In this document: piece after piece, positions 1 through 56,471 of the stretch
Layout: every line of letters starts with the position of its first letter
Position numbering within the stretch: position 1 is the first letter of the stretch
Assembly: GCF_000002075.1 (NCBI RefSeq)
Contig: NW_004797741.1
Coordinates: 436,822-499,792 of the forward strand
Source: Aplysia californica
Taxonomy: Eukaryota
Length of the DNA stretch: 62,971 nucleotides
Reading direction: 5' to 3'
Program-made: the position numbers and the translations under genes
The notes under the pieces: generated by a model
What the model was told of the DNA's origin: nothing
The model's input: only the letters and a program-made list of their open reading frames with translations
Database searches by the model: none

Positions 1-1669
1 GGGGGGATTTTTTTGTTTACATGAAGGATTTTAGTTTTAATTTGCTTTAGTGGTGACTAAATGCAAAATAGGTTACTGCAAAAGTCAAGCAGTCTTGTTT
101 TCTCGCAGTACCTTTTGAAGGCATTTTCAAAATGAAGTGTAGTCCGGGAAGGATGCCCCAACCACAACTGCAATTGAATCATCTGAATATTCAGATATTT
201 AAAAAATCTCTCGAATCTAGCTCTAGAAATTGAATTCAATGCAAAAAATGCTTCCTCCCAGTCCTTGCAGAATGGCATGAATGAAAGTAGCAATGCCAAT
301 CGGGCTTCCGCACATGGTGAAAATTTGGTCCCTGTTTGCAGGTGAACTTTTGGACCCGGTCGGAACAATAGTGACAAACTTTCTCGAGCTCGTTCTGCGC
401 TATTTCTGGACCAACGTGAATGAAATTAGGCAACCATTCAGAAAATAGGGCAAACTAATGATATGTGGAAGTTGAAGATCGTACACATAAATTAACCTAC
501 TTTCGTATCGACTACATTGAAAACTAAAAGGAGTTTTTGATGCCAAGATGGTAAGAGATCCATCTTTCCTCTATAGTAATTTAAAATTTGAACGTTCTGT
601 GTCAAGTAGGTTTGTGCACAATTTACCATCTATAAATGTACCACTACCCCCCTGTCCAAAGCGGCTTCGCGCGGAGACCGGCCATTTTCTCCTCACTCCC
701 TATGAAAATGTTGTGACCTACAAATCCCCGCATGACTATTCCGAGCCTGTTCATTGGTCACTTGAAACAGGGCAATGGCTTGCGCGCACATCCGGTTGTT
801 TTTCTCTCTGTTCCCCTGTAACATCGCAATGGGGATATTCCGAGGCGAGCTTATCGGGTGTTCGCGTCTCAACGGGATGAAGGGGATTTTAATTGAACGG
901 CATGTTAGATTGAATTAAGCTAGGTGCAAGGTAACTGCTTTGCTCCCTTCACGACCTTGACCTTTTTCACTCCGCTTTTTGTGTACTGTGAGCGGAATGT
1001 AATCCCAAAAATGATCCCAATCTACTCCCTGTCATCTTTCCTAAGGGAGAGCAAAATGCAGTGACACTGAAAATCTTACTTAGTAGAGAGCTGTAGTTGT
1101 AATCAGAATTTTAAACATTAAATAAAAACATATTTGCTTCCAGTTTCAGTTTGTTTCGGGGGTTTTTTGTCCTCTCGTGTTGCGTCCAGCCCTAGCCCTC
1201 CCCCTATCCCCGAGTGCGTCTCTTAAAAAAATCAATAATCTCCCCCCCATTCCTGAGTCCTGTACTTCGAAGCGCTCAGAACACGCGCAGGTTCATTGAC
1301 CGGTCACAATGGCGAGCCCGAAAAGATGCTTGTATAACTTTCTTTTCTTTATGTTGTCCCCCTGACAGTGACAAATATTGATTTATTTTCATGGCAACAT
1401 CACGTTTGTAATGCCGAACCTTCATGTTACAATAATTGTTGCGTTATCAGACAATTACTGACAAATTTCTAGGTGGTAACGAAAGCGAAAGTAAAGGCTT
1501 ACTGGACGCTCTGTTATGAAATTTAGTGGGTATCATGCTGAACTATAGAGCGGTTGACCCTAGTGCGTCATCTTCGAAAAAGCGCAAACTTTGCAAACAG
1601 AGTTACCCTACTTGTGTGAAAAACAATAAAAGTGACACTCTTTTTGGCTGAGTGAACTATCTCTTGGAC

Positions 1670-1790
1670 CCTCCGGTTACTGTGTACGTTGATACTGAGA
1701 CTACGTGCCCAGTTACCGTGTACCTAACCTGAGGCTACGCGCCTGGTTACCGTGTGAACTTGAGGCTACGCGCCCGGTTACCGTGTGCGT
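1670..1790. repeat. Short tandem array (~30-35 bp, GAGGCTACGCGCCCGGTTACCGTGT), likely a MULE subterminal relic
   Basis: About 4 degenerate units. The motif resembles the termini of the elements at 2135 and 51490. Confidence 0.6.
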
Positions 1791-2134
1791 AGACACAAAA
1801 CTTGGATTGCAGCTAATGGTGTAAGAGTGGTGACTGCGTTATTCTGAGGCCACTTCTCGCATTATATGTAGCGGGATTTACCTGATGTTTTCCCTTTGAC
1901 GAATCGGTCCCGCATAAGGTGCGGGACGTTGACGGTAGCGTCAATGTACTTGCCCCGCAGCTTGTGCAGCACACGTCGCGAGTGAGTTAATGAAAGAAAT
2001 TACAAAATCGCTGTTTAATGAACAACAAATGAAATTGAATGGCATCCAAACGCCCACTACCAAAACAAAAACATTGCCAATTGCTCTCACTCTCAGTAGT
2101 AATCTATAGCTCTCTAGCCTCTCTATTTACACTA

Positions 2135-3579
2135 GGGAGTGTCAGACCCGGTAACCGGGAACAAAGTCACAAAGTATACAGGCCCGGTATGGGAACTCTT
2201 TTGTGATTTCGGAAAGTTCTTCTTGGCTCAGAGTAGACCTAGATCTAGGTTCTTCTTCTAGATCTATGGCCTAGGTCTAGATCTAGACAGACAGACATAA
2301 ATCATTGATCTAGTTTCGAGGCTAGCCTGGATCTAGATCTAAATGAAGATTGCGAATGTCTTTTCGATGAACGATCGTTTTTCCTCCGTTTTGGAGTTGG
2401 AGAGGAATCACAATTTGAAGAAAAGAACAATGTCATAACTAATTACAATCGAGCTGTCACCCTCTCTAGTAGGCACTACTTGATGGTGGTCCCGACTTGT
2501 GTAGGCCTAGATCTACTGAAATATCGATACTGATTTAAATAGTCGGTATCAATGTTTTATATTTTATCAGTAGCTTAGATCTAAACCTAGCCTACAAAAT
2601 GAGCAGTAAAATTTCACTTGTTTTTCACAAGGCAAGGGGGGGTTGCCCCCCTGACTTTAAAAAAAAAAAATCATCGGGTGTTTCAGGGGGGGCATGCCCC
2701 CCTGAATTTGAAAACGATTTTATGTTTTGAAATTAGGTTTGAAAGGCTATCTCTCCATATCGGCACGCGAATCAAAAAGTAATTGTTTAGACTTAAATCT
2801 AGTACCAAAAGTAATCGTTGTTGGGGTCAAAACTAGATCTAAATTCTAGATTTTCCCTGTCACAAAAGTCAGGACCACCATATTTTTCAAGAAAGTGGCT
2901 ATTCTCACCCGCCCGGAAGTTCTCGCAAGATCAACTCCTCCCCTCTTCTCTCTCTCTCTGTCTCTTTCTGAATACTGTCTAACGGTGTGGACGATCAAAT
3001 TGACCAAAACAAAGTTAATAAATGATGTTAAAACATAAAAAAAGTAAATTAATTTGGCTGTCTACAAAGATGCTACGGCTATTTAACTTTTCGAATCGAG
3101 CCGAACTACGCGGGTCACCATTTTGTTTTGCCCGGAAATTCTCGCGCTACTCCTCTCTCTCTCTCCACTGCCCACAGACAAAATTGTACGCTTTTAGTAG
3201 GCTACAGTTGTAATGGAACGTTTGTTCACAGCACAGAATTCTACAATTTTTCTGTTATCACAGTGTAGAATTCTGTGGTTTAGGGTGAACGCAAAATTTG
3301 GTGAACGCGCACCGGGTGAGAATAGCCACAAGACTCGCCTGCACTATTCTCACTCCGGGTGAGAATAGAGGTGGCCCTTTTTCAAAGTAGAGTAGTGCCC
3401 CCTCTCTAGATCTATTTCTCTCTCTCTCCTCTGTCTCTGTGTATCGCTCGCATTCTCTTTTTCTTTGTTTGTCTCTGTCTTTCTTTCTCCCCACCTATTT
3501 TCCACTGTATCTTTCTCTCGTTCCCTCCTGTCAACTAGGGCATATGTACATTTTGCTAGCACTTCCCCTTGCTCTCTCT

Positions 3580-3614
<35 letters not shown>

Positions 3615-3713
3615 TCGGGTCTGGGCGCTGAAACTTTCCGAAATCACAAAAGTCCTACCAGGTCTGCATACTTCGTGACTTTGTTCCCGGTTACCGGTTC
3701 TGTATACACTTCG
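2135..3713. mobile_element. Non-autonomous Mutator-like (MULE) element with nested repeats
   Basis: ~80-bp imperfect TIRs (2135-2218 vs 3631-3713) and a perfect 9-bp TSD TTTACACTA (2126-2134, 3714-3722). Confidence 0.8.
2895..3376 (+). repeat. Dispersed repeat, copy A (GGCTATTCTCACC/GGTGAGAATAGCC family)
   Basis: Collinear similarity to 39278-39785, e.g. ttttcgaatcgagccgaactacgc..gccattttgttttgcccg. Confidence 0.75.
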
Positions 3714-3812
3714 TTTACACTATCTAGGCCTAGTCACTAGGCTAGGGCTAGGCTACAGGTAACACACTAAACTACACACGTACTCCTTCAGTTCAACAGT
3801 ACAGACACAGGA

Positions 3813-3938
3813 CTAGATCTAGAATCTAGATATAGATCTAGAATATAGATCTAGATCTAGATAAAATATAGATGTAGATCTAGATTCTATATCTAGATCT
3901 AGATCTAGATCTATATCTATAGATATAGAATCTAGGCC
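3813..3938. repeat. TAGATC/TCTAGA palindromic low-complexity tract
   Basis: Dense AGATCT/TCTAGA overlaps; similar tracts at 2236-2341 and 40001-40210. Confidence 0.85.
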
Positions 3939-3982
3939 TACACAGTGCAACAGTTCCATTCAATCATCAATCGTTCAATTAC

Positions 3983-4004
3983 CATCATTTGAAATGTAAG
4001 GCAT
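3983..4004 (-). CDS. Candidate first coding exon MPYISND(G), selenoprotein K-like; the rest of the gene would lie left of the window
   Basis: caaagATG CCT TAC ATT TCA AAT GAT G|GTAATT: A at -3, phase-1 donor, and resemblance to the SELENOK N-terminus MVYISNG. Only 7 codons are visible. Confidence 0.45.
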
Positions 4005-4199
4005 CTTTGTCTTTAGCAGTTACTTGTTGGAAGGCACCCTGCTGACGAGGTTCTGAAAACAAGAACACTCCCAACTTCCTTCATGGAAGCAAATACGAGA
4101 AAACAGATTTTTGTTACAGTTTGGGACTTGCTTCTCTCACTCAATTCCCTTTCGAACTTTCGATGGATGTGACACGCAACATAAACAACGTTGGACAGA

Positions 4200-4720
4200 G
4201 TTGATATTTTTTTGGAATCGGCGCAGTACACTCAACAGTGAATCAGCTCATTTGAACGTAGGCTACGCGGTGTGATAGCCAAGGCCTACGTAAACCATTG
4301 TGGTTTGCTGTTTATGTTCTGGCCCAAACTAAAAAGTAATCCAAGAGGGGAACGACGTATTGCCAGAAATTTGGATCTGCTGATTTGATTCCGCAGTCAA
4401 GGTACTCATTTTTTGATGACGTTTTGTGGTTTCCGGGATACTCTTGAAAACTATTTTCGTTTCTCTTTCAGTGGTGTAGTAACCTCAGGACAACAACAAT
4501 CAAAGTTGGGATTTGAAAGACTTTTCTGGAAGGAACAAATTCAGATGCACGAATGTTGACAACACACCATAGTTTTCAGTAGTTCTGTAAGTTGTTAGTG
4601 AGACAGGGTGAGTACAGCAGTCATTGAGAATGTCTTTGTCTTGGCGCTCAAAGAGTGCCTCTGTCGCTATTCCTATTCCTAGTGTCAGTACTGTGGTGAC
4701 AGTGAGTACCACCGTCCGTT
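4200..4720. promoter_or_regulatory. Putative bidirectional promoter and YOD1 non-coding first exon
   Basis: Unique, CpG-retaining sequence with TGACG and TTCCG motifs. Plus-strand donors GTAAGT (4587) and GTGAGT (4608, 4702) could splice to acceptors at 7580/7643/7675. The minus-strand ATG exon is at 4004. Confidence 0.45.
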
Positions 4721-5672
4721 ACTGATGACTAGGCCTGACGTCGTAAATCCGTGGTTTGTCAATTCAAAGCCCAAGTTCAAGTTATCCCCCCCCCCACCCC
4801 CAATTATTAGACCATAACCGGCCATTCTAAAACTGTCAACAGCTGTCTTCTTGATCTAGACGGCAGCCTGCTGACTCAGTAGGTCTTTTTTCTTTGCAAA
4901 TTGCAGGAGACTGTTCGGTTCGGTTGTCTGTGATTGTGCAGCACCCATCTTCCGCCGAGATTGATTCTGATGCTGTACACTACGTAAATTGAGAAAAAAG
5001 ACTAAGAGTAGGCCTACTGTTCGGTTCAGCTGCCGTTGTGCAGTCGTGTTGCCACCATGACTGACAACAGAGTGAAAATCCCTCAATGACGTCAAACAAG
5101 ATATAATGGCTGTTACTATAAATAGGCCAGTAACGTACATCTGATGTTCTCTAATTATCCGCTTGTGAGCTTGACTGCCTGCATGCCAGCATGATGAAAT
5201 GAATATAATATGTCAACAAACTGTTGGCCAATTTGAGCCGGGAGACAAGTTTTACTCAATTGATACTGACTCATCAAACTCAACATTCTCCCAACAAAAT
5301 CGAAGCCTATTGTATTTTAGGATCCCTCCTATTAATTGAAGTGTTTTCTTCTACTTCTAGATTTTCAATTTTGTTCTTAGTCGCAGAGTTTGGGTAAGGC
5401 TAACTCATGCATTTAATTGTGTGCCTGGGCCACTTGATTGGGGTTGTTTTACTGCCGGATTATAGTGACTCAGCACAAAAACTTTTCAGTTTCAAGCTTC
5501 AAAATAGAGAGTTCATTGTGGGGTTGGTTTCCATCCCTGTGTGTTCTGCTGGTGTGTTCATTTGACCTCAGCTTTAGTTTTGTCCGCACCCAAATTATGA
5601 TCTGGAAAGTGATAATGTGGGAGGGAATACATTACATTGGTTCAACAAATGTATTAAATTTCATTTTAAAAG

Positions 5673-5856
5673 CAGGGATGCCAAATCTCCAGTTTTTCCG
5701 GCTTTTTCCGGGTTTTTTATACACTTGCAAAGGAAAGGGAAATGTAAAAGAAATGTTTTTGTTTACCCATTTAAGATTTTACAAGGTTTGTTTTAGGTGA
5801 GGTGTGATGCTCCGCTCATTTTCAGGGTTTTTTTCAAAAATCATTTGGCATCCCTG
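5673..5856. mobile_element. hAT-like MITE
   Basis: TIR CAGGGATGCCAAAT / ATTTGGCATCCCTG with a flanking direct repeat TAAAAG. Confidence 0.65.
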
Positions 5857-7684
5857 TAAAAGTAGAGCTGTAAAGCACAAAGTACACTCAAAGCTCTTGA
5901 CCTTGGGCCCCTGGGGGCTGTATTTTTTGCACCCCGCTATATAAAGCATTTTCGACACCCTCGCTTTCCAGTGGGTCTCATCAGTCTGGCCCCGCTTAGC
6001 TTTACGTGTACCAGGCATCTCATTTCTGCAGCCGAAGTGTGTGTGTGTCTGTCTGCCTGTGTTTGTGTGTATTTGTGGCCTACTTTCAGAACCTAACTTG
6101 AATGGTCTGTATTGGTTCAAAAACGAGGCGTACGTAACATCTTGTTCAAAACAAGTTAAGTTCTTTTTTTTAGCAATGAAATTTGAACAAATTGACCCAC
6201 TTAGATATATATATGAGAAACTCGAAAGCATAATCAGGAAAAGAATCTTTCATATGAGCTTGATTTTACATTGAATGATCTGATATTTAAATACTGATGG
6301 TTTTTAAATTGTGTGCAGTAAATTTGAGAGCAAAACTTTTGGTTATTGACCTATATATATATAATTTTTACTTTTGAACCACAGATTAATTGTGATATCA
6401 ACAATAGCATCTAAAAAGGTTAAATTTGAATGGGCATAGCCTCGCCTCTTTTTTTGTCACCGTAAGTGTGTGCTATTAGCTCCAAGAGACAAATGTAATA
6501 AATCACTGAAGTCATGGGGGGCATGAAAAACGCTGGGGTTTTTTTCAGTTTAAAAACTCCACAGTTCTTGGTCACTTTTGTTGTCTCGACACTTTTTATA
6601 GAGCAATGCATTTTCTGTTTTGAATTAGTTTTGGTTAACAGAGGGTGTTTTGGGAAGGAAAACCAGAGGGAAAAGGAGGAAAAAAGGCATGTACAGTATA
6701 ACACGGATAGGTCGAACACAGAAGACTCGAAATCATGCTTCCATCGAACTGTGCCTGTGGTTCTGTATTTTTCTTATAAACTTTAACTTTGTAAGAAAAT
6801 TACGCGAAGCTCAAACACAAAGGATAGTTGAACTAATTACGCCACCATAGTGGTCTAAAGTCAGTGTTCTTTGAGGTGCTCTTGAGACAAAATAATAATT
6901 ATTTAAAAAACGGAAAAGGGCAAGGTCGTTAAAATACCACCTTCCCCCCTCCACAGGAGCAGCTAGCCGTGCTATTTTTAGCGTGCTGCTCAACATGAAT
7001 GGCTAGCCCCTAGGCCTAGCTAGGCATTGGTGGAGCAGGTGAGAGGAAGGGTTGTGCATCACACGATTGACCGTCCCACCCCTCTTCGCAAAGGACTGCG
7101 TGTATGGTGGGAGAGGCAGGGAAGGGCTGCATTGCTCTCAGACAAGTGAACGGAGGTAATCGACCTATTATTTTGCCCCTAAAGTTGCAATCTTTGATGC
7201 TTCCCTTGATTCTCTGACACAGCCGATGCCATTATAACACTGTTCTCGTATCCCTCGAAGTACAGTCCCAACGAATTCGAACTATCCATGTTATACTGTA
7301 ATATGATAGTAATGTGATAATTGAAAAAGTTCAAGAGATGAGAGAGGGCGTGACAGAGAGGTTGTCCATTTTCATTTTGACTTCAAAAATTATATCTTGC
7401 AAATGGATGATTTATTGAGAAAGAAGCTCTCAAACTCCTGAGAGCAATTATGGGCCGCTTAACAGTTAAACAGGGCACTTTACTCTATGTATGTTTAATC
7501 ACTTACAAATTTTCACACTGCTAGTCTAGGCCTAGATAAGATTATGTTATTTATACATGGTTGTTTTTTTGTTTTTTCAGTGTTAGTCATAGATGGAGGA
7601 AGGACTAATATTATACTAGCTTTTTGATTTTTTTTTCATTTAGTATAAAAATTGTTTCTTTCCGTCAATTGGCAGATCCTGAAA

Positions 7685-8638
7685 ATGTCAGGTCAACAAC
7701 TTCGACTGCGGGTACAGACCAAACTAGGACCCAAGATGTTGGATGGTTTATATCTAGCCTCAACTGTAGGCAAGTTGAAAGAAACTATTTCAGCAGCTGC
7801 CGACATACCACCACATAGAATAAGATTAAGACAAGGTTACCCTCCAAAGATTATCGATATAAGCAATGACACTGCTGAGTTGTCAACATTACCGTTTCGC
7901 TCTGGTGACACTATCATAGTTGAGGAGGATGAGTCTCATTCCCAGGGCATGGTCCCAGAGACCAGTTCCTCCTCATCGGACGATCGTCTCGACACTCTGC
8001 TCCACCATCAGTTGGAGGAAGGAGCATCTGGAATACTCACCCGACGTGTTGTGCCAGCAGACAATTCCTGCTTATTCACAAGTACTCACTTGGTCATGAG
8101 TGAGGGTGCTTTGGACTCCAGCGAGGCGAGCCACCTAAGGGAGGTTATCGCCGGCATCGTCTCAAAAGATCCAGTTACTTATTCAGAAGCTTTTCTAGGG
8201 AAACCAAACAAGGAGTATTGCAAATGGATTCGGGACAAGAATTCTTGGGGAGGAGGAATAGAACTGTCTGTCTTATGTCAATTTTACTCTACAGAGATTG
8301 CTGTAGTGGACACTCAGAGCGGGAGAGTGGACAGGTTCGGAGAGGACAAGAATTACAAAGAGCGAGTTTTCCTCATCTACGATGGAATCCACTACGACCC
8401 TCTGGTGTATGAAGCCGTAGACCAATCTGGGGGAGTTTGCACAAAATTCTCCATACACAATGCTGTCATCTTGGCTCAGGCTCTAGAATTAGCCTCCGAA
8501 GCAAAGTCAGTACGCCAGTTCACTGATGTGGAGGGGTTTTCTTTGAGGTGCCTAGTATGCCAGACGCCTCTGCGAGGACGGAAAGAAGCCACTGATCATG
8601 CCCAGGCCATGGGGCATCTCAACTTCGGTGAATATTGA
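7685..8638 (+). CDS. YOD1: Ubiquitin thioesterase OTU1/YOD1, 317 aa, CDS without introns
   Basis: First ATG is at 7685 (aaaATG). The protein has an N-terminal ubiquitin/UBX-like domain (LRLRVQTK...GYPPK...GDTIIVEE), an OTU domain with catalytic motifs PADNSCLF, WGGGIEL and YDGIHYDPL, and a C-terminal C2H2 finger (CLVC...HAQAMGH, NFGEY). The ORF track start at 7652 is a non-ATG extension. Confidence 0.96.
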   Translation: MSGQQLRLRVQTKLGPKMLDGLYLASTVGKLKETISAAADIPPHRIRLRQGYPPKIIDISNDTAELSTLPFRSGDTIIVEEDESHSQGMVPETSSSSSDDRLDTLLHHQLEEGASGILTRRVVPADNSCLFTSTHLVMSEGALDSSEASHLREVIAGIVSKDPVTYSEAFLGKPNKEYCKWIRDKNSWGGGIELSVLCQFYSTEIAVVDTQSGRVDRFGEDKNYKERVFLIYDGIHYDPLVYEAVDQSGGVCTKFSIHNAVILAQALELASEAKSVRQFTDVEGFSLRCLVCQTPLRGRKEATDHAQAMGHLNFGEY

Positions 8639-10167
8639 TCAAAGTTAGACTCTTGCTGCCTGTATCAATCACATATCTTATATTTATATCAGGGTGCAGT
8701 TTTGTTCAAACAAAGGACCCAAAAATAAGAATGGATGTCATAAAACATTCAAATTAGTCAGTGGATAGTTTTATTCTTTCCATCTCAACCGGAATAATTG
8801 TGACTCTTGAAATGGACATAGAAAGTTCTGGGTCTCTAATGTATACTGAACTGCGACTGCTGATAGAAAAAAGAAAAAGAAAATTAAATGACTTGGATGA
8901 GTTTCATTGAAACCCTTTATTTTTTTAGCTTCCTCTATTCCAAGCATTTTTAATTTTTGTTGGAGTTGTGGAATACATGGTAGTATTGGTAGTGGTCGTG
9001 AAGGGAATAGTTCTTGTTATAGGTGATGATGTGAGCCAGAATTTTTTTGGCATCCTACAAATCTTATTTCATATTTGTAATAAAGTGAGCAGTAATTCCT
9101 ATGAAGACCGAACTACAGTGTCAATGAAAGGGAGCACAATTTTAGCTTTTCAATTTACGTTTTAAAAAACGTTATTCTTGTTTTTAGTTGTTTTTTTAAC
9201 GTTGCTTTTAAAATATTATGTTGTTTCAGGATTATAGTTCATTAATGCGAACATTCTGGAATGCTGTCTCTCTTTTACTGTTATTTTTTTCTTTTTTATG
9301 TGTTTTTGTATTAGTAAATAAAGTTCTTCAAGTTGTGATCAGTTTAGCAAATTTTTTTTACGTTTTAATTACTGTTTGGAAAACATTGTTTGGTTTTATA
9401 TATATTATATACCTCATAATACTATATTTTGAAGTTTCTCTGTGAAAGAGAAACAGTTATGGGACCTCTAACTCTTATCTATTTAAGTCAGTCCAGTTTA
9501 TGGACATAGTCATTTCAAGTATGTTTTATGTTTTTGATAATTTATAAAATAAAAAAGACTGGATTGGTGGAATTTATTTGATTTGGATCTTCAAGTTTTT
9601 AGGAACACCCGAACAAAATGCTCATCTACAGGTTACAGGCTGCTGGATTTTCATAGAGTGCTCTTTGTACTGAACCGCTATAAATCTTGTTTGTCCATGT
9701 GCACAACTTTCATTTAAAACTACCGTCAAATACATTTTCTAACCTTTGCTTTGTTGGGATTCTTTCAAGCTTTACAAATTTTTACTTAAACTTTTTTTAT
9801 CCAAGTAGCCATTTCCTGAGTGTAGTCACTCTATCATGTCAGGCACAAATCTGACTGTGTGGCGCGATTTTGACCATATTTGCAGTTATTGTTACTGAAA
9901 ACTACCTTTCAAAATGTAAGAAACCGATACATTTTTGCAAATGTTTACAGTAGAAATGTATGGAAAATGCCTTCTCAGCCTTTTGTGTAGTACTACTACA
10001 GACACATTGTACAAAACTATTGTAAAACAGAATGAAATTTAAGATTGCACCATATTTGAGGCACGGAATAAATGCTGCATATTAAATTATGTGTGTGACA
10101 CATATTGGGAGTACTTATTATCTGTCCATGCGTACACATGTACGCAGCATGACTATTGTTCATTGTT

Positions 10168-10560
10168 TCAGGAAGAAACATCCTTGCAGTTCGGACACAT
10201 CCACTGATGCTCCGTTGCTCTCTCCAAAATGCCGCTGAGGGTCTTTCTACTGATTGTGCCAGTGCATATCTGGTTGAACGTTCTTCTGTTCTTTCCTGCA
10301 AGGATGCCAGATTTTCTACTTCCTTTCTGAAAACCCAAACCCATCATCCACTCCACAGCAGTACTGGCCTCTGCCTCCTTATCTTCCTTTTCAGTCAGGT
10401 GGTGAGAGAGACATTCAAGGATCTCGACCTTGTCTGGTTGAAATGTGCTGTCTACTGAGGTGGTCTCACCAGCCAGTCTGTCGGCTTTTTCATTTCCTTT
10501 AACACCTGCATGGCCAGGGCAGAAATGTGTCGATTGCCTGTGAATGTTACATCTTTCTAT
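10168..10560 (-). mobile_element. LINE 3' fragment (RNase H C-terminus + Cys motif; I/ingi/Nimb-group-like)
   Basis: PGHAGVKGNEKADRLA is the RNase H motif; a terminal CPNC follows. Confidence 0.75.
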
Positions 10561-11122
10561 TGTTAGCTCTATAGCTGAAAGGTCTTCTAAAAATTGTATC
10601 AAAGTAACAAGGACCTGAAAAAGTAATAGTCTCCTCTACTTATTAATATAATAAGAATAAGATCCCTCTCCATTCAATTCAGGAGAGAAATCAGAATGTC
10701 CTGAATACAGTCAAATCTGTTCATTGTGCCCCATCTTGTAATGACAACCCTGTCTACAGCTGCTGATATCCCTGTACTCCACGCAAAAAAAAAACACCCA
10801 GGTTATTTTGACCCCCACCCCCTTTTTTGGGGGGGGGGTCTATATTAATTTTTTTTTTTTTTTTTTTTTATTAATATCTTACAAAATTCACATTCCTCTG
10901 TTCAATGCCACTGGACCAGATTTTTTCAAACTCGTTGCTGGCAGTTAAGAGGTTTAACCACATGTACTTCAGCAGTGTCCTCTCTTAATTGCAAGTTTAG
11001 TTTTTATTTGAATTTATAATTTAAAACAAATCTTTTCCAGGATATCATTTTTTTTTTCTCCAACTTTAAGATTGTCAGTCAAAAAGGCACATATGATTGT
11101 AAACGGTTTATTGTTTGTGAGT

Positions 11123-11156
<34 letters not shown>

Positions 11157-12309
11157 TTGTGCATGTGAGCTGTCTGTGTGTTCATATTATATTTTTATGA
11201 GTGTATAACTATAACACATTTGTTCCCAAAACCTACATAGTTGTGAACTTAAATGCATGTGTGTGGGAATTTTGTATGCATGTGCATTACAGTTTTGTTT
11301 TTGACTGACAGAGGTGTGAAAGTGTACTAGTAATACTCAGTTTTTTTAATAACTTTGAATTTTTACAAATTGAGGATGAAATTCCTGTCAGCTGCATGAT
11401 ACAGAGGCATCAGTATTGTTTATATTTGCGCCAGAGAACATTGATTGTTCGACTTGTTGAAAATGTGTCATATAAAAGCATATGGAGAGACTGCTTGAAA
11501 GAAATCAAATACAGTGTGTTGTTTCAAGCCATTCACGTACGTGTGCCATGTACTGTACAAATACAAATGAGTGACAGAACTAAAGCAAATCAAAGAGTAA
11601 AAATCTGAACTATATTTTTAATGTATATTTTGTCACACTAAGTGAAAAAAATTACAGTAATTTTTTTTAAAGGCAGTTCCTCAATCTGTTATAATGCAGC
11701 ACGAGATACAGTACTGGAGGTCAAGTAATATTATAATATATTTATGTGGAAGAAATATGTAAACGTCAACCCCTTTCATTGTTCTAAAGGTACTGCTTAG
11801 GTTGATGTACAGTTCCCCAAAAGTATTATATTACTTTACTTGGGCACCTCTGCTTATATTCATGTAGTTTTCATGCTTTTCCAACAGGTGTAATGGTATT
11901 CAAGCAGTGTACCTCGACTCCAAATCTTTGGTGATGTTAGTACATGTACATTGTAATGTTAATGACATAGCTTGTACCCTCGCCTCAAATCAAAATTATT
12001 TATTGTTCCCCTTCTATAGAGATGGGACACAGAATGGCCAGCATAAATACATGTACTGGATTATTGTCTTTGTGAAGTTTTGATTTTCTCTCAAGTACAA
12101 GTACAATATGGTATTAGACTAGAGTAGGTAGAACAAAGTTTGCGGAATCTGAATTCAGCCCGAGGTCTGGTGACTCAATTATGTTAAATTAATATTTTTG
12201 GCTTGATGAAGTTAATTAATGTAATTGTTGGCATTAGAAATAAATCATTTATGTTTTTATCACTTCTAGCCAGTGTAAATTATTTTGCAACATGGATGAT
12301 TAAATAATA

Positions 12310-25500: not shown

Positions 25501-28500
25501 TTTTCACATAATATAAAAGGCTATGTATCTCACACCTTCAGATAGCACTTCTCCATGTGTCTGAGGGCACCCTTTTGACTGACTTCACTACCACAAGTCA
25601 CACAGTAAATGCTCAGCTCTGTGTCCTCATCCTGCTCAGCACCCTGTTTAATGAAGAAAGAAAAAATGGAAATGATGCAAAATGCAGAGAAATCCTGTAG
25701 CAAATCATTTAAAAGATACAAAACAAAATGAGTTTTACATCACATGAAAAGGAGTCGTAACAACCTTTTCTGTTCTATATTACCGGTAATGAAAAAAATA
25801 TATCTGCATGGGAGTACAGCTTTAATTTCTTTGTTGTAGCAATAAGTGGGGCAAAGAATAAAAAAAATATGAGAGCATTATTAACCAGGTTAGCATTTAG
25901 ACAATCAATGCTTTTTTTTTCTAATTCTGTTGAGGAACACTTTGCCCCTTTCTTCTCCCCCTCCCCCCCCCCCATAATAATCATGTAATCATGTCAAAAC
26001 CTTTCACCCAAATTACTAAAAGCAATAGTGGCTACATTCACAATTAATTCAAGTAACTCTTTTGTTAACACTTTGAGGTCACTTGGCGTATTAATGTGTT
26101 GGTGAAAATTATCCGTTTTGGTCACCTGGCGCAGTTCTGCGTCAGGCCCGAGAAGTCTGTTGCAGTCATTCTCCTGGCTGGGTGACTAGATGGGGTTCTC
26201 TGTACTGCTGGCTGTGTGACTATAAACTGTTAACTCACTTGCGACTGGGCCCTTTCACCAGTCACAAGCGTTGAAGACTGGCGTTTTGGGGGGTATTTCA
26301 ATAAATCACCACAACTCTCAGAATTACCCTATTGTAATCATTTTTTGACACAGTAAAGTAAAATTCAAGCTTAATCTAATACAAAAAACTAAAGTTGTCT
26401 AAGTCTAATACTTTAATTTGTATGATATTTTAAAAATTGGCATGAATTTGATTTTCGAAAAATTTCCAGAGACGTGACAAGTAGAATGAAATTCACTGCA
26501 ACAACAAAAATAAAAGTTCAAAGTGTTCTGGTTTGATTTGTATACATGTGCAAGTGTTTGGTGGAAATATAAAAGCTGGTCTGTGAATTGATTCAGACCC
26601 ATACACTGAATTACATGAGACAGATGTACGGCACGACGTTGTGATTTCGTTGCGCGAAAAACAACACCGGTACTAGTGCTAGATCTAGCCCTAGAACTAC
26701 GACTCGGGCCGTGTTCGGGTACATATCCAGGATCCTAACTATTAGACACATCATATTCTGAGACACTAGAACTAGTAAAACGCACAGAAGTATAGAAAAC
26801 GGCGAAATTATGTGATTCTTGTTCATGCGATTTCTTCGACCATTACTACGACGCGACTGTCGGATTACTATGAGCTGTATAGAAAAAAACAAAGCGCGAG
26901 TTCCGGTCTGTTCAGCCCCAGTTGGGGTCACTGTCCTTCACCTTCAATAACTTAAAAACTACCGGCCCCAGAGATACGAAACGAAGTCTAAGTAGCTCAG
27001 GCTTGGCCAAACACGGGTCTCGCGATCCGTGCGTGATTTGTAGAGCGAAAAAAAAATTCCAAAGTTGGTCACGCAGGGCTTGTGAGACCCGTCGCGAGCG
27101 TCATGGCGGGGGTCACGCAACTGTTGTGTGACCCGTCTGAAGTGAGTTAAAATACATCACAGTCACTGAAATCTGCAAAACTACCTTTCAGAAAATAATT
27201 GAATAGCCTGTGACAGATACCTCTCTGGAATAATAATATAGCAATCGGAAACTGATCACGCTGACCACACACCTCCTGTTCTGCCACCACAGAGAGATGT
27301 TTTCCTCGCTCCACTAGGGCATCCAGCTCTTGAATCTTCAGGTCCAGCTGGCGGAGTTTTAGTCGAGCCTCAATCGTTTCTTGACGCAGTTGCTCTAAAA
27401 GTTTTTTGTTGTTATCTTCTCCAACACATGGACTGCTGTGCCACTGCTGAATTCTGGACGGTAGGATTTCGTAGATACGGCTGAATGATAAAAAAAACAT
27501 TTTTAAGAAAAGGCAATTTGATTCCATTTCGAGCCGTTGTCTTCAAACATGAAATCTACAGACATGTACATCAAAAGCCCTAATGAGAAATAAGATATTC
27601 ATGCAAATGTGTTTACAAAGGATAAGGTGATAAATAGTTTACATTACAGGTCAAATTCTTAAGAAGCTGGTTAGCTCAGAAAATTAAGTCTGTGATAGGC
27701 AACAGCACAAGAAATAGACTTTAGAGACCATCCATAAAAAAATATATTGATAGAATTAAAAAGGTCTTAAAATAAATATAGACATAATACTGAATAATAG
27801 TAATTTTAGTGAACAAAAATCTTCTGCTTTGTCTCCAAATTTCCCCACTCTGACCATCAACTAGCTTCCAACGCTTTTTTTCACTGAAAACAAGACAAAC
27901 GAACCAGCTTTAAGATGATACCAATACCTCCACATGCCCCAAATCTGACGAGCGCCTGATTCCACCGTGTCGTGACACAAATCGTTTATTACATTACACT
28001 GGTCAACAATGAAAAAGACTTGAAAAAAAAAGATGTTGAATCCTATGGAATTTGATAAGCTGATTCCAAATATGTTGTGTGACAGTGATGGTCAAAAACA
28101 GCAGTGTACCTCTTTGCTAGCTTCATCCCGCACTCATCTGAACAATATTTGGAGCCAAGCCTGGCCGGCTCTATGCACGCTGGGCCATAGCACTGTCTGG
28201 GCATGTCGTCATCTGTTTCAAGAGCATCATCAACTTCTGTACGTCTCCTTGATAAACTTGACTTCTGACGACTTTTCTGTGAATTAATAGCACACTACAG
28301 ATCGTCAAGACCATGCAGTGAATATGTCTTTTTTAAACATCTGAGCACAAATTAATATGATTTAACTGACAAAAAAATTACAGCAAAGAAATAAGAGGCA
28401 AAGAATCTAGGGAAACTTGGAAAAGTCTGCAGACTGCTACAATGTACTGCTGTGGAAAAACCATCAGGGCACAATTCACAAATCTATCCAACTGTTATTT

Positions 28501-51931: not shown

Positions 51932-54900
51932 CTGCAATCTGCGATTGCAAACGTTCACGTGAAAAGTGGCAAAATTTTGAAATTGTTTCACTTAGGTCTT
52001 TAAGACTTTGGAAAGTTTTTTCCCACATATAATTCAGCTGCCATGTTGACTGATCCGACTCTTGACTTGGAGGACAAGAGGTGACCGACTGAGTGATTGA
52101 TCACGCGAATTTTAAAGGAGCATGCGCAGAAATCCCCACGGGCCAGAACTCGGAACATGCGCAGAAATCCCAAGGGCCAGAAGCCGCAGGCCAGGCGGGG
52201 CTAATCGACCGAATTTGTTCGCCCGGAACATGCACCGAAATCCTAGATCGGGCGAGTAGCCTGATGCTAGTCACCCGACATCGGGCGAGTAGCCACTCCG
52301 TTTATTTGTAAAGCAGTTCAATTTTTACATTATTTTCCCTTTATCTATTTATTTTCTGTAATTATTCCCCCAAACAGCCCCGAAGCTGATAGAAACAGTA
52401 ACAAAGTCATGAACGCATTGTATTCATGCTCTAACTACATACACACTGCTTCTAACGCATAGGCAGAGGAAAACAGTAAGAGTTAGTTGAAGGGCACAAC
52501 ATCGAACCCAATTTGTCTGAAAAGACTCAAACAACATAAATACTGCAATAATTAGTAGGAGAGAACACATTAAAACATCCACCAACCACTCACAAAACAG
52601 AGCAACATGAACAAACCTGCAAAGAGGAGGTCCTCTCTAAGGCAGGAGCCAGCTTGCAGATGCCCGAGTCCAACAACAAGTTGGTGCTCAGATCAAGCTG
52701 GCGTAACTTTTTGGCGTGTGTGATGAGCTCGGCCAGACTGTCACAGGCTCCACTGGTCAGGCCACAGTTCTCGACACACAGCTCGCTGCAGCTGGACTCA
52801 GGGAGGAACTTCACCAGCGCCTGGGGAAAATTTCAAATTTGTTTTCAGATTACTCATTTGTTGTTGATTTAAATACAATTGACATACATATTCCCTGTAT
52901 AAAGGAGTCCAAAGAAGGCCATGTGAAAACTGGAGAAGAGTCACATGGAATGATATACAGAAAAGTGGAAAGACATGGAATAATGTCAAAAAGTGAACCT
53001 AGAGGATAAGGAAAAATGGAAAGTGCAATTGTCGGAGGCCTGAGCCCTGATCCAGGGTGAGAAATGTTATGATGATGGAGAGGAAGTCAAAGAGACAAGC
53101 AAAAGAGCACAGCAGAGACCGCTGATTTCTCCAAAAGCAGGACACATTTATTAAACTGTTCAAGTCTGCTATATCAGGTCGGGAAGTCGGGATAGTCACA
53201 GAGTCAGGGCACACCTGTCAAACACAGCATCGGATTTGCTTCATCTTGACTGAATCCGGAAGTTAAAACCAGCCAGCTATGATCTGCAATGAGTGCAGAA
53301 TCTATGTCACTAACCGGGGCACCAAGGTTCAAAAGGTAAAACACAAAACCTCTCCAGTGACTGTAATTATAGCTCCAAGAGCAACATCCGTAAGTCTCGG
53401 CTGCAACTGTAGGGGATTCGAAAAATTTCACAGATGCTCTGGTACATGAACATTTCAACCAACTGATTGGGGGGCGGGGGTGGGGGAGGGGGAGGGGCGG
53501 CTCGATGTGCTGTGGTTCAGGCATTACACCCCTCTCCCCCTCCAGAATAAGTTTTGGCCTAATTTTACCAAGAGGTCACCCTCCAATTGGTTGTTTGTAG
53601 ATTTTATTTAAATTTGATTATGACGCATTAAAAAAAAACTAACACATTTGATTTTAGATGATCATATCATCGATGTGCAATAAGCTGCATCAACTTAGAC
53701 AACTCTTTTATGTCGCCACCATCCGGCAGACCATGCAGAAGTGGAATAGCTTAAAAATTAAGAGTACACTGCTCGGAGTTGAGGGGAGAAGACTAAAAGC
53801 AAAAAAAGAATCGACAGTTTAAATGTGATTATAAAAAGTCAATAAACCAGTACGAAATCCTTTCCAATTTCAGTTACAAACATCATATATTATTTAGTCA
53901 ACACAATAACAAGACGAAAGATTNNNNNNNNNNNNNNNNNNNNNNNNNNNNNNNNNNNNNNNNNNNNNNNNNNNNNNNNNNNNNNNNNNNNNNNNNNNNN
54001 NNNNNNNNNNNNNNNNNNNNNNNTGCTGCTGCTGCTGCTGCTGTTGGTGTTGTTGCTAATACTGCTGCTGTTGTTTACGTTGTTGTTGTTATTGTTTGTA
54101 GGGAAAGGCTGAACTTTGGTTTGCAAGTTGATTCTTTTAAAAATCCGTTTGCTTTTTATAGCGGGTTAAACTTTGTTGATTTTATTTCCTTTTTTTAATT
54201 TCTGGTCTAGGTTTTGATGTAGACTTTAGAATATTTGACACGCCTTATGGTGAAGCCTTTTCCCAAAGCTGTTCGGTAGCCTGTTAAAAAAAACAACAAA
54301 AAAACAAAGAAAACAACCGCAAACATACACACAAAAACAAAGAAAAACCCATCTCCCCCTTTTCCCCAAATCCACACAATAACCCTCTAAAAATGGCAAC
54401 AAATCTAACAGACTTGGAGAAGTATATTTCCTATGTCGTTGAGGACCTCCTCAGCAATAATATTATTTTTACAGTCATCACAAAAATAAGATGGAAGAAT
54501 GGAACCCCTCACCTTTCCAAATCCAACCCAAACAATAGATAAATCCTTCAAAAATGGCAAATACGAACCGACTTGCAGAAGCATATTTCCCTTATTGTTG
54601 AGGAGGACTATCTCCGCAATTAATAATAATATTATGAAAACTGTTATGATCCTTCATTTCATTTGTTGCTCTGAAAGCCCGTTGTAACCGCAACAACAGT
54701 AACACCCCCCTCCCCAATCCTCAATTCCCCTTTCCACTTTTCAACACAATGTTTCCCGATAAAAAAAATGTAAAAAACGACTTTGCCCTACCTGCATGCC
54801 TTCATTGCCGATGGTGTTCCTACTGAGGTCCAAGACACAGAGGCTTCTGTTCCTCGCCAGACCCTCTGACAGCGCATAGCATCCCGGCGCCGTGATGTTG

Positions 54901-55764
54901 TTGTTCCTCAGCCTGAGCTTCTGCAGGCTGGAGTTGGACCTCAGCATATCTCGCAGGTGGGAGCAGCTCTCGTCGCTAATCTCCAGGAAGCTCAGGTCAA
55001 GGTCGACCAGAGTCCGGTTGGCGGCTACGGCTGAGGTGATTGTCTTGATGGCTGCCAGGTCGAGGCTGGTGGAAGAGAGATTCAGGTTGCGTAGGGATTT
55101 CGTATTCTGAAGAAGCTCGGACAGCGAGTCCGCCCCGACCTGGTCCACGACGTTCAGACGCAAGTCCAAAGAGTGCACAGTGCTGTTCTCCTGAAGCGCC
55201 TTCGCCACCACGCTTATGTCCACCCCCGAGAGCTGCGTCTTGCCAAGGTGCAGCTGACTGATGCAGTTGTGAGACTTGACCATCTGAGCCAGCGCCTCGG
55301 CCCTTCGTCCGGAGAGGTCGTGACCCGTGACGCACACACTCATCATCACCAGACCCGGGTACGCCCCCGGTTCGCCGTTGCGACACGAGTCGGAGTCTCC
55401 CTCCAGTAAGGAGTAGGCCGATGCCCGGGAGGACGCTTTGCTGAGCCTCTTGTCCCCACTGGCCCGCACACGCTCCAGCTCCACCAGAGGCTTGAGGGAA
55501 AGGTCAGGGGCCAGGTAGCCCACGTCAAAGGTCACGTTCTTCTCCTCCTCCAGCACAGAGCTCTCGCTGGCGCTGCACTGCACCTCGTTGATGATGCGGT
55601 CCATCTCCCGCATCACCTGGAGGACCTGGAGCAAGCAACACACTCAATATGAGCTGATTGTTTTCGTTTGACTTTAGTAAGAGTTTTACAGCGCTTGCGA
55701 CACAAAGACGTCATAATGTAAGTGTTGAAGAAAAAGTAGATAATATTATTGGTTTGATGCTTCA

Positions 55765-55848
<84 letters not shown>

Positions 55849-56412
55849 TCACATTCTCTCTTTCACACATGTCTGTGCACATAACAATAATGATGCAGTT
55901 GGATGCTTGCACTCACAAACAGGCTCAGAGTCACATGCATAATAGATTCTATATAAATGACAACAATAGTTAAAATTAATAGTCTTAAGCTGGATACGTA
56001 ATCAGTATTCTGATTGTGACCCAATGGTATTCTGATTGTATGCTTTAAAGGTCATAGGAATTCTTATATTACAAGATGGTATTACTAGTAAGTAACAGAA
56101 AGGAAACGAGGAGAGATAATGATGATAGATGTTTGATAGGAAAGAAGGAGCGAATAACAGAAGAGCACCCATCAACCAGGGTTGGTGATTTTTTATATTT
56201 TTTTCATAAAAATAAAAAAAATCGATTTTTTAAATTTAAATCATGATTTTTTAAATTTAAATCAGATTTTTTGATTTTTTTGATTTTTTAAAAAATGTCG
56301 ACACAGTTTGGGATTTTTGGCTACTAAAAGTATGTTCTTTTAGTGCAAAATGCATTGTCTTTATTTTAACTAATGATTAAATTAAGCAACCTCAAAAGAA
56401 AGCCTTAATCTG

Positions 56413-56471
<59 letters not shown>

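What the first reader, a model, noticed from the sequence alone, without database searches (positions are those of the whole stretch)
3983..8638. Possible SELENOK-YOD1 head-to-head pair: two p97/ERAD cofactors on one short promoter
Seen: a minus-strand ATG exon MPYISND-G|GTAATT at 4004-3983 points out of the window. It lies ~600 bp from the plus-strand splice donors (4587-4707) that probably end YOD1's non-coding first exon. Known: human selenoprotein K starts MVYISNG, and as I recall its first intron also follows a very short phase-1 exon. SELENOK and YOD1 both work with p97/VCP in ER-associated degradation. Inference: a bidirectional promoter could co-regulate an ERAD module, with TGACG/TGACGTCA sites (4436, 4736, 5087) as candidate bZIP/UPR elements. 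The identification rests on only 7 codons.
Basis: partly seen in the sequence, partly recalled or inferred. Interest (0 to 1): 0.7.

Follow-up and report, generated by a model that had tools for sequence, protein, structure and literature searches.

The report
Snail SELENOK–YOD1 head-to-head gene pair
Two ordinary, already annotated protein-disposal genes, selenoprotein K and the deubiquitinase YOD1, point away from each other with about 240 bases between them in this gastropod and are likely neighbours in related snails and sea slugs too, so they probably share one promoter, but joint induction by ER stress is untested.

Summary
Confirmed. The minus-strand MPYISND exon is exon 1 of a six-exon SELENOK gene: all five introns are GT-AG, the protein equals a database selenoprotein K, and it ends GGG-UGA-GR with a SECIS candidate. 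The plus-strand ORF is single-copy YOD1/OTU1. Spliced contigs leave the window at both first-exon donors; their outermost ends (4226, 4465) are 238 bases apart. New here: accession numbers place the two genes side by side in 4 of 4 other euthyneuran gastropods tested and in 0 of 16 outgroup species, 8 of which carry them on one chromosome; orientation there was not seen. The UPR argument needs repair: TGACG occurs at chance rate (63 vs 60.6), the sites at 4736 and 5087 are intronic, and the core has no canonical ERSE, UPRE or CCAAT. It does hold four ACGT cores and a near-XBP1 site (4415), resembling this genome's UPR promoters more than six control promoters (small, post hoc). Verdict: a real, lineage-restricted bidirectional pair of known genes; ERAD co-regulation is plausible but unshown.

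The parts
3983..4004 (-). SELENOK exon 1, coding part (MPYISND + G, phase-1 GT donor at 3982-3981)
   Evidence: Exons 2-6 lie left of the window on G000 C471: 432712-432628, 431607-431589, 430590-430538, 426609-426545, 423925-423882 (Sec UGA, then GR, stop); SECIS candidate 423305-423237.
4005..4226 (-). SELENOK 5' leader in exon 1 (outermost contig end 4226; true start not mapped)
   Evidence: contigs reach 4155 (X4), 4210 (X11), 4226 (X6); all 4 runs lack 6 letters at 4004, one copy of a short duplication just before the ATG.
1..3982 (-). Window part of SELENOK intron 1 (about 8.1 kb in all), rich in repeats
   Evidence: Exon 2 found 4.1 kb left of the window as the best PF10961 match in G000; high repeat depth.
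4227..4464 (.). Intergenic core, likely shared (bidirectional) promoter: TATA-less, no CCAAT, CpG o/e 0.96 vs 0.63 background
   Evidence: Bounded by contig ends; composition and motifs. Promoter function inferred.
4256..4422 (.). Cluster of four ACGT cores (4256, 4288, 4355, 4419)
   Evidence: 40 of 5000 dinucleotide shuffles and 5 of 1061 background windows reach 4; post hoc among 24 motifs.
4415..4423 (+).
   Evidence: GATGACGT 7 times in 289,708 bases; consensus from PMC8910952 passage. Binding untested.
4431..4436 (-). CCGGAA, ETS-type core, common in bidirectional promoters (recalled)
4465..4607 (+). YOD1 non-coding exon 1, donor GTGAGT at 4608
   Evidence: X11 contig 4465-4606, X1 contig 4478-4606, each running on with 126 and 30 unplaced letters; depths 5.4 and 11.4 match the YOD1 coding contigs (4.4-5.1, 12.5). 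The join to the next exon is inferred, not listed in the cut joint table.
4736..5094 (+). Intronic TGACG (4736) and full CRE TGACGTCA (5087) in YOD1 intron 1
   Evidence: outside the shared core.
6957..7155 (+). YOD1 non-coding exon 2, probably alternative
   Evidence: joint 7153/7674 GT..AG in X1, X4, X6; records in X4 and X6 begin 29 unplaced letters before it, so it is spliced from upstream.
7676..8638 (+). YOD1/OTU1 coding exon (ATG 7685, 317 aa: UBXL, OTU, C2H2 zinc finger; GYPP 51, DNSCLF 126, GIHYD 234)

Best explanation
SELENOK and YOD1 sit head-to-head with at most 238 bases between their transcribed ends and are likely driven by one compact, CpG-rich, TATA-less bidirectional promoter that would keep both on as housekeeping genes, with probably only modest bZIP input through its ACGT sites. 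Shown: both gene structures, splicing at both first-exon donors, the spacing, the motif content. Inferred: the genes lay on one ancestral chromosome, were brought together by rearrangement within it in the ancestor of euthyneuran gastropods, and stayed together because a break in a shared 240-base promoter damages both. On this reading their common link to p97 is compatible with, but not the cause of, the pairing.
For: Gene identity and structure. Divergent spliced leaders 238 bases apart. CpG o/e 0.96 vs 0.63, no TATA, ETS core. Neighbours by accession in 4 of 4 other euthyneurans, in 0 of 16 outgroups, 8 of 16 on one chromosome. Such pairs are common and sticky: 1,262 human pairs, 62% within 400 bp; 68.8% kept between human and chicken vs 56-60% of same-strand pairs (PMC1487180 abstract and section 7). 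Retention not explained by a functional link between partners (PMC3403606 abstract). No canonical ERSE/UPRE/CCAAT in the core, whereas CALR has a perfect ERSE, DERL1 a perfect UPRE, BiP a one-mismatch ERSE.
Against: No start site, strand or expression level could be measured: only assembled contigs were available. The ACGT cluster groups this promoter with UPR genes: ACGT sites per 350 bases were 5 here, 4/1/2 in CALR/DERL1/DERL2, and 0,1,1,0,0,0 in six proteasome/CCT promoters, and TGACGT was in DERL1, DERL2 and here but in 0 of 7 control windows, which favours rival 1. PMC1487180 (abstract) reports that head-to-head genes tend to share functions. I had no control for how often arbitrary neighbours stay adjacent across euthyneurans, and orientation in the other species was not seen.
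Confidence: 0.55

Rival explanations
1. Selected ERAD module: the shared promoter is an XBP1s/ATF-responsive switch that would raise the membrane adaptor (SELENOK) and the p97 deubiquitinase (YOD1) together under ER stress, and this benefit would have kept the pair together for over 200 million years.
For: Both proteins are p97 cofactors in ERAD; the GYPP-type loop is kept in 116 of 120 YOD1 relatives (its role in p97 binding is recalled). Human SELENOK has an ERSE (PMC6555942 passage). GATGACGT at 4415 (0.006 expected per 238 bases); four ACGT cores (40 of 5000 shuffles); ACGT per CpG 5/14 here and 7/39 in three ATG-anchored UPR promoters vs 2/72 in six controls (Fisher p 0.001 and 0.009). 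Neighbours in 4 of 4 other euthyneurans.
Against: No canonical ERSE, ERSE-II, UPRE or CCAAT in the core. The motif was chosen after scanning 24 motifs; the control set is small (first exon located for 6 of 16 control genes; a seventh window was intronic) and the prediction stated in advance for GRP94/TRAP1 could not be scored. Not adjacent in 16 outgroup species. A YOD1 review holds no 'ER stress' or 'unfolded protein', SELENOK-p97 binding depends on SELENOS, and one review lists YOD1 under proteasome and lysosome functions rather than ERAD.
Confidence: 0.22
2. Two independent core promoters back to back: the genes are neighbours by rearrangement, share only an open chromatin region, and stay adjacent because gene order decays slowly in this lineage.
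For: Neighbours are often retained without a shared promoter (56-60% of same-strand pairs between human and chicken). Both genes lie on one chromosome in 8 of 16 outgroups, so mixing within it can bring them together. YOD1 has motif-rich intron 1 (CRE 5087) that could regulate it alone.
Against: 238 bases or fewer leaves little room for two separate proximal promoters (inference); this spacing is typical of bidirectional pairs (PMC1487180 abstract).
Confidence: 0.21
3. The seven-codon exon is a chance match and not part of a SELENOK gene, or YOD1 starts near 7.5 kb.
For: 14 similar ATG-donor units occur in the window by chance; the runs are only guessed to be RNA.
Against: The six-exon model equals database protein P0121 letter for letter up to the UGA; the same contigs carry exon 1 and exons 5-6; the exon 5-6 joint is in 3 of 3 RNA-like runs and absent from the probable DNA run; YOD1 leader exons lie at 4465-4607 and 6957-7155.
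Confidence: 0.02

Closest known systems
Selenoprotein K (SELENOK; Pfam PF10961 SelK_SelG)
   Same: 95-codon frame, one N-terminal hydrophobic segment, Gly/Pro/Arg-rich tail, UGA third from the C-terminus, SECIS-like hairpin in the 3' UTR; identical to database protein P0121, which its source names 'selenoprotein K [Aplysia californica]'.
   Different: P0121 stops at the UGA (92 aa) and so lacks Sec-Gly-Arg. Human SELENOK has an ERSE in its promoter; none is present here. 3' UTR about 3.1 kb by contig cover.
YOD1/OTU1 deubiquitinase (UBXL PF21403, OTU PF02338, zf-C2H2 PF24560)
   Same: All three domains, catalytic Cys and His motifs aligned to PDB 4boq; single copy.
   Different: Whole coding sequence in one exon behind two non-coding exons. 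Human YOD1 is at 1q32.1; human SELENOK is on chromosome 3 (recalled; one search found no paper to cite), so they are unlinked there.
Head-to-head (bidirectional promoter) gene pairs, as surveyed in PMC1487180 and PMC3403606
   Same: Divergent genes under 1 kb apart, spacing in the commonest class (1-400 bp), CpG-rich and TATA-less core, retained over long times.
   Different: This particular pair appears restricted to euthyneuran gastropods and joins two non-homologous cofactors of one ATPase; I found no description of it. Bidirectional activity itself is untested.
UPR promoters with ERSE (CCAAT-N9-CCACG) or UPRE (TGACGTGG/A)
   Same: ACGT cores are dense; one site is a single mismatch from the XBP1 consensus, like the TGACGTT site 100 bases above DERL2's ATG.
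   Different: No ERSE, ERSE-II, UPRE, CCACG or CCAAT in the core, unlike CALR, DERL1 and BiP of the same genome.

Membership tests
SELENOK | Match to PF10961 over the whole protein | tested here: met
   P0121 (identical to the exon model): 114.9 bits, cut-off 23.3, profile 1-86 of 86; exon 2 is the best of 20 matches in G000.
SELENOK | Single N-terminal membrane segment followed by a Gly/Pro/basic tail | tested here: met
   Read from the sequence and the alignment with 20 relatives; no membrane predictor was run.
SELENOK | In-frame UGA third from the C-terminus | tested here: met
   After the first stop the frame reads GR then stop; definition from PMC9344019 passage.
SELENOK | SECIS element in the 3' UTR | tested here: inconclusive
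   AUGA/AA/UGAU hairpin about 590 bases after the UGA: best of my pattern scan and top Rfam match SECIS_1, 20.8 bits, E 0.12, below the gathering score of 35, in a 301-base stretch chosen afterwards; not found in the 30 kb scan; folding energy z -0.28.
SELENOK | Selenocysteine incorporation, ER location, p97/Derlin binding | not testable with these tools
   Needs bench work.
YOD1/OTU1 | UBXL + OTU + C2H2 zinc finger | tested here: met
   all three above their cut-offs.
YOD1/OTU1 | Catalytic Cys and His of the OTU domain | tested here: met
   DNSCLF and GIHYD align with 4boq; 4bos/4boz differ at the Cys.
YOD1/OTU1 | p97 binding through the UBXL domain | not tested
   GYPP loop present (role recalled); no complex was predicted.
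Bidirectional (head-to-head) gene pair | Divergent genes with 5' ends under 1 kb apart | tested here: met
   Contig ends 4226 and 4465; strands from splice sites and reading frames; exact starts not mapped.
Bidirectional (head-to-head) gene pair | One promoter element drives both directions; correlated expression | not testable with these tools
   Only assembled contigs; their depth cannot rank genes.
Bidirectional (head-to-head) gene pair | Arrangement conserved in relatives | tested here: inconclusive
   Adjacent by accession in 4 of 4 euthyneurans, 0 of 16 outgroups; orientation and spacing not seen.
Canonical UPR target promoter | ERSE, ERSE-II or UPRE near the start | tested here: not met
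   0 exact matches, and 0 one-mismatch ERSE/ERSE-II, in 3981-4607; consensus per PMC8910952.
Canonical UPR target promoter | XBP1-type ACGT-core sites | tested here: inconclusive
   Four ACGT cores and GATGACGTT; enriched against shuffles and six control promoters, but post hoc.
Canonical UPR target promoter | Induction by ER stress | not testable with these tools
   No stress RNA data.

The most novel reading that the evidence does not exclude
Euthyneuran snails and sea slugs assembled a two-gene ERAD module from genes scattered on one ancestral chromosome: a 240-base XBP1-type bidirectional switch co-induces the p97 membrane adaptor SELENOK and the p97 deubiquitinase YOD1, and has held them together for over 200 million years.
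Probability: 0.2. Interest if true: 0.58.

Novelty: new member of a known kind. Interest (0 to 1): 0.36.

Why it matters
Both genes are known, and head-to-head pairs are common, so the bare arrangement is ordinary. The useful part is the history: linked but apart in other molluscs and a sea urchin, adjacent in every euthyneuran I could test. That gives a datable birth of a bidirectional pair whose partners serve one ATPase, a clean case for the open question of whether such pairs are kept for co-regulation or just because a shared promoter cannot be broken. It is testable in laboratory snails and sea slugs with a 240-base dual reporter and one ER-stress RNA-seq. If co-induction holds, it would also be a first sign that YOD1 is a transcriptional UPR target in an animal (I saw no such statement in the one YOD1 review searched).

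Tried and rejected
No RNA holder is listed as RNA on record; runs were judged RNA-like only from spliced joints. Contig depth (SELENOK contigs deeper than YOD1's in 4 of 4 runs) was not used: the tool says it cannot rank genes. Rfam scan of 30 kb found no SECIS at E up to 10. Metagenome scan with YOD1 gave one distant 1.25-kb contig, useless for gene order. TGACG enrichment: rejected. HSE, CARE, CRE, TATA, ARE, GC-box, NRF1, YY1 motifs: none in the core. SELENOS as a positive control: only a weak match, not used. MANF promoter was located partly by its ACGT peak, so it was left out of the statistics as circular; BiP was anchored on its ERSE and donor and is not in the Fisher tests; the HSP60 window was intronic and dropped; 9 of 16 proteasome/CCT first exons were not located. 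The prediction written in advance for GRP94 and TRAP1 could not be scored: their first exons were not found, with assembly gaps in the way. Seven euthyneurans had only one of the two genes in my lists (Elysia marginata, E. chlorotica, Plakobranchus, Lymnaea, Biomphalaria pfeifferi; Candidula, Bradybaena) and were not counted. The primary SELENOK-p97 paper PMC4706009 is not held. Earlier scan notes: nothing. No structure or complex prediction was run; none bears on the question.
Full report
Setting. The window is G000 C471:436822-499792 in a 927-Mb genome. The nearest named relatives of its YOD1 are euthyneuran gastropods (73-77% identity: Physella, Elysia, Lymnaea, Plakobranchus, Bulinus, Biomphalaria).

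The plus-strand gene. ORF 7685-8638 encodes 317 residues with UBXL, OTU and C2H2 domains, aligns to solved OTU1 structures with the catalytic motifs intact and is the only match in G000. It is YOD1/OTU1.

The minus-strand gene. The best of 20 PF10961 matches in the genome lies 4.1 kb left of the window on the minus strand (E 4.9e-6). Reading the neighbouring DNA gave five more exons. The six-exon model has five GT-AG introns, equals database protein P0121 letter for letter up to a UGA, and continues Gly-Arg-stop. P0121 is named selenoprotein K by its source and scores 114.9 bits on PF10961. Sec third from the end is the family mark (PMC9344019, passages). A SECIS-like hairpin lies about 590 bases past the UGA: best of my scan and top Rfam match there, but at 20.8 bits against a gathering score of 35, missed in the 30-kb scan and unremarkable in energy (z -0.28). 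It is a good candidate, not proven.

Transcripts. Of 24 runs listed, 18 hold the YOD1 stretch; none is on record as RNA. I laid four on 1-12000 and four on L007, six different runs in all. All four runs have a contig over SELENOK exon 1; those listed reach 4155, 4210 and 4226 and leave at the donor. The X4 and X6 records of the same length and depth cover exon 6; the exon 5-6 joint is in X4, X6 and X15 and not in the probable DNA run X2. For YOD1, contigs in X1 and X11 cover 4478- or 4465-4606 and run on with unplaced letters at the GTGAGT donor, at depths equal to the coding contigs; exon 6957-7155 is joined GT..AG to the coding exon in three of four runs. The joint from exon 1 onward is inferred, since the joint table was cut. 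Contigs show neither start nor strand, so 238 bases (4227-4464) is an upper bound on the gap.

Gene order elsewhere. No other animal genome is searchable here, so I compared scaffold lengths and accession numbers of named YOD1 and SELENOK proteins. In 4 of 4 other euthyneurans with both genes they share a scaffold and have consecutive or nearly consecutive numbers: Physella acuta XP_059169723-4 and XP_059169726-7 (599-kb scaffold); Bulinus truncatus KAH9518919 and KAH9518918; Biomphalaria glabrata KAK6994790 and KAK6994789; Elysia crispata RRG08_009484 and RRG08_009483 (291-kb scaffold). In 16 other species (4 vetigastropods/neomphalines, Babylonia, 8 bivalves, a chiton, 2 sea urchins) none is adjacent by this measure: 8 share a chromosome with numbers 81 or more apart (Mya WAR25430 vs WAR25325; Gigantopelta, two Haliotis, Liolophura, Pecten, Argopecten, Diadema setosum), 7 lie on different scaffolds, 1 is undetermined. 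Caveats: that numbers follow position is my assumption and is loose for RefSeq; orientation and spacing were not seen; seven euthyneurans had only one gene listed. PMC9392753 (passages) dates the split of Sacoglossa from the pulmonates at about 235 million years (191-260), a minimum age for the adjacency.

The promoter. The core is CpG-richer than background (o/e 0.96 vs 0.63) and lacks TATA, CCAAT, ERSE, ERSE-II, UPRE, CRE and CARE. To ask what a UPR promoter looks like in this genome I read five: CALR has a perfect ERSE 148-166 bases above its ATG, DERL1 a perfect UPRE at -85, BiP a one-mismatch ERSE, MANF a GATGACGTGA site further up, DERL2 only TGACGTT at -100. So canonical elements are used here and this core has none. 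Against that, the core has four ACGT palindromes (about 1 expected by shuffling; 40 of 5000 shuffles and 5 of 1061 windows reach four) and GATGACGTT at 4415, one mismatch from the XBP1 consensus quoted in PMC8910952 (passage); the 8-mer occurs 7 times in 289,708 bases. In 350-base windows ACGT counts were 4, 1, 2 for CALR, DERL1, DERL2, 5 here, and 0, 1, 1, 0, 0, 0 for six proteasome and CCT promoters (rank test p 0.02; Fisher per CpG p 0.009 and 0.001). The motif was picked after scanning 24, the sets are small, and my advance prediction on GRP94 and TRAP1 could not be scored. This is a lead.

How it most likely works. Shown: two intact genes, divergent, with a gap of at most 238 bases. Inferred: one bidirectional housekeeping promoter; origin by rearrangement within an ancestral chromosome; retention because the shared core cannot be split. 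Head-to-head pairs are numerous, mostly within 400 bases and retained more often than other neighbours (PMC1487180, abstract and section 7), and PMC3403606 (abstract) found that retention is not explained by a functional link between partners. The functional tie here is real but loose: SELENOK reaches p97 through SELENOS, YOD1 through its UBX-like domain in ERAD and lysosome clearance (PMC12188669 and PMC5468458, passages; PMC10405438, passages). Human SELENOK has an ERSE (PMC6555942, passage). I put 0.55 on the housekeeping reading, 0.22 on a selected stress-responsive module, 0.21 on independent promoters.

In print. Searches for YOD1 with SELENOK (4 papers, 3 listed), for SelK/YOD1/OTU1/selenoprotein K (40 of 271 listed; one held names of both genes, a VCP review) and for Aplysia with selenoprotein K (1) showed, from listings and abstracts' beginnings, no description of this pair. 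Subscription journals and supplements were not searched. Earlier scan notes held nothing.

Verdict. Observation confirmed; gene identities supported; UPR argument partly wrong as written, and open. New member of a known kind; interest 0.36.

Noticed in passing
window 3810-3940; also L007 1110-1190 and near the first exons of HSC70, HSP60, MANF, CCT6: Runs of TAGATCTA/TAGGCCTA palindromes sit beside first exons; 12 of the window's 22 TAGATCTA copies lie in 2240-3414 or 3814-3913 clusters, 6 of them within 170 bases below the SELENOK donor. May mark promoter-flanking DNA in this genome.
   Followed up: partly
window 7104-7155 into 7676: If exon 2 is included, the YOD1 leader has four short upstream ORFs and one 64-codon out-of-frame ORF that overlaps the main start, a layout like ATF4's stress-gated leader (recalled); the exon-skipping form has only two short ones.
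   Followed up: partly
window 4004-4009: All four runs lack one copy of a 6-base duplication just before the SELENOK ATG; allele difference or assembly error.
   Followed up: no
Bulinus truncatus KAH9518918 and KAH9518923: Two SELENOK-like genes five accession numbers apart on one scaffold; the copy next to YOD1 is annotated with an aberrant C-terminus, the other with an aberrant N-terminus. Local duplication or annotation error.
   Followed up: no
database protein P0121 and relatives: The gastropod SELENOK entries aligned end at the Gly run before the UGA, so the Sec-Gly-Arg end is missing from them.
   Followed up: partly
G000 C2:2591849-2602248 (L038, L039): A second BiP-like HSP70 with a signal peptide and a KEEL end, besides the KDEL-ending BiP on C734.
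   Followed up: no
window 27150-27542 minus: Exon of a CXXC1/CFP1-like gene (PF12269), the next gene recognised to the right of YOD1.
   Followed up: partly
window 54744-58508 minus: Large exons of a leucine-rich-repeat gene (LRR_6) with an upstream exon of no Pfam match.
   Followed up: partly
window 9440-12000: Contigs at YOD1-like depth continue to at least 12000: a long YOD1 3' UTR or the 3' UTR of the convergent neighbour.
   Followed up: no
L007 1310-1474: Exon of another spliced transcript about 2.5 kb beyond the SELENOK 3' end, in 3 runs.
   Followed up: no
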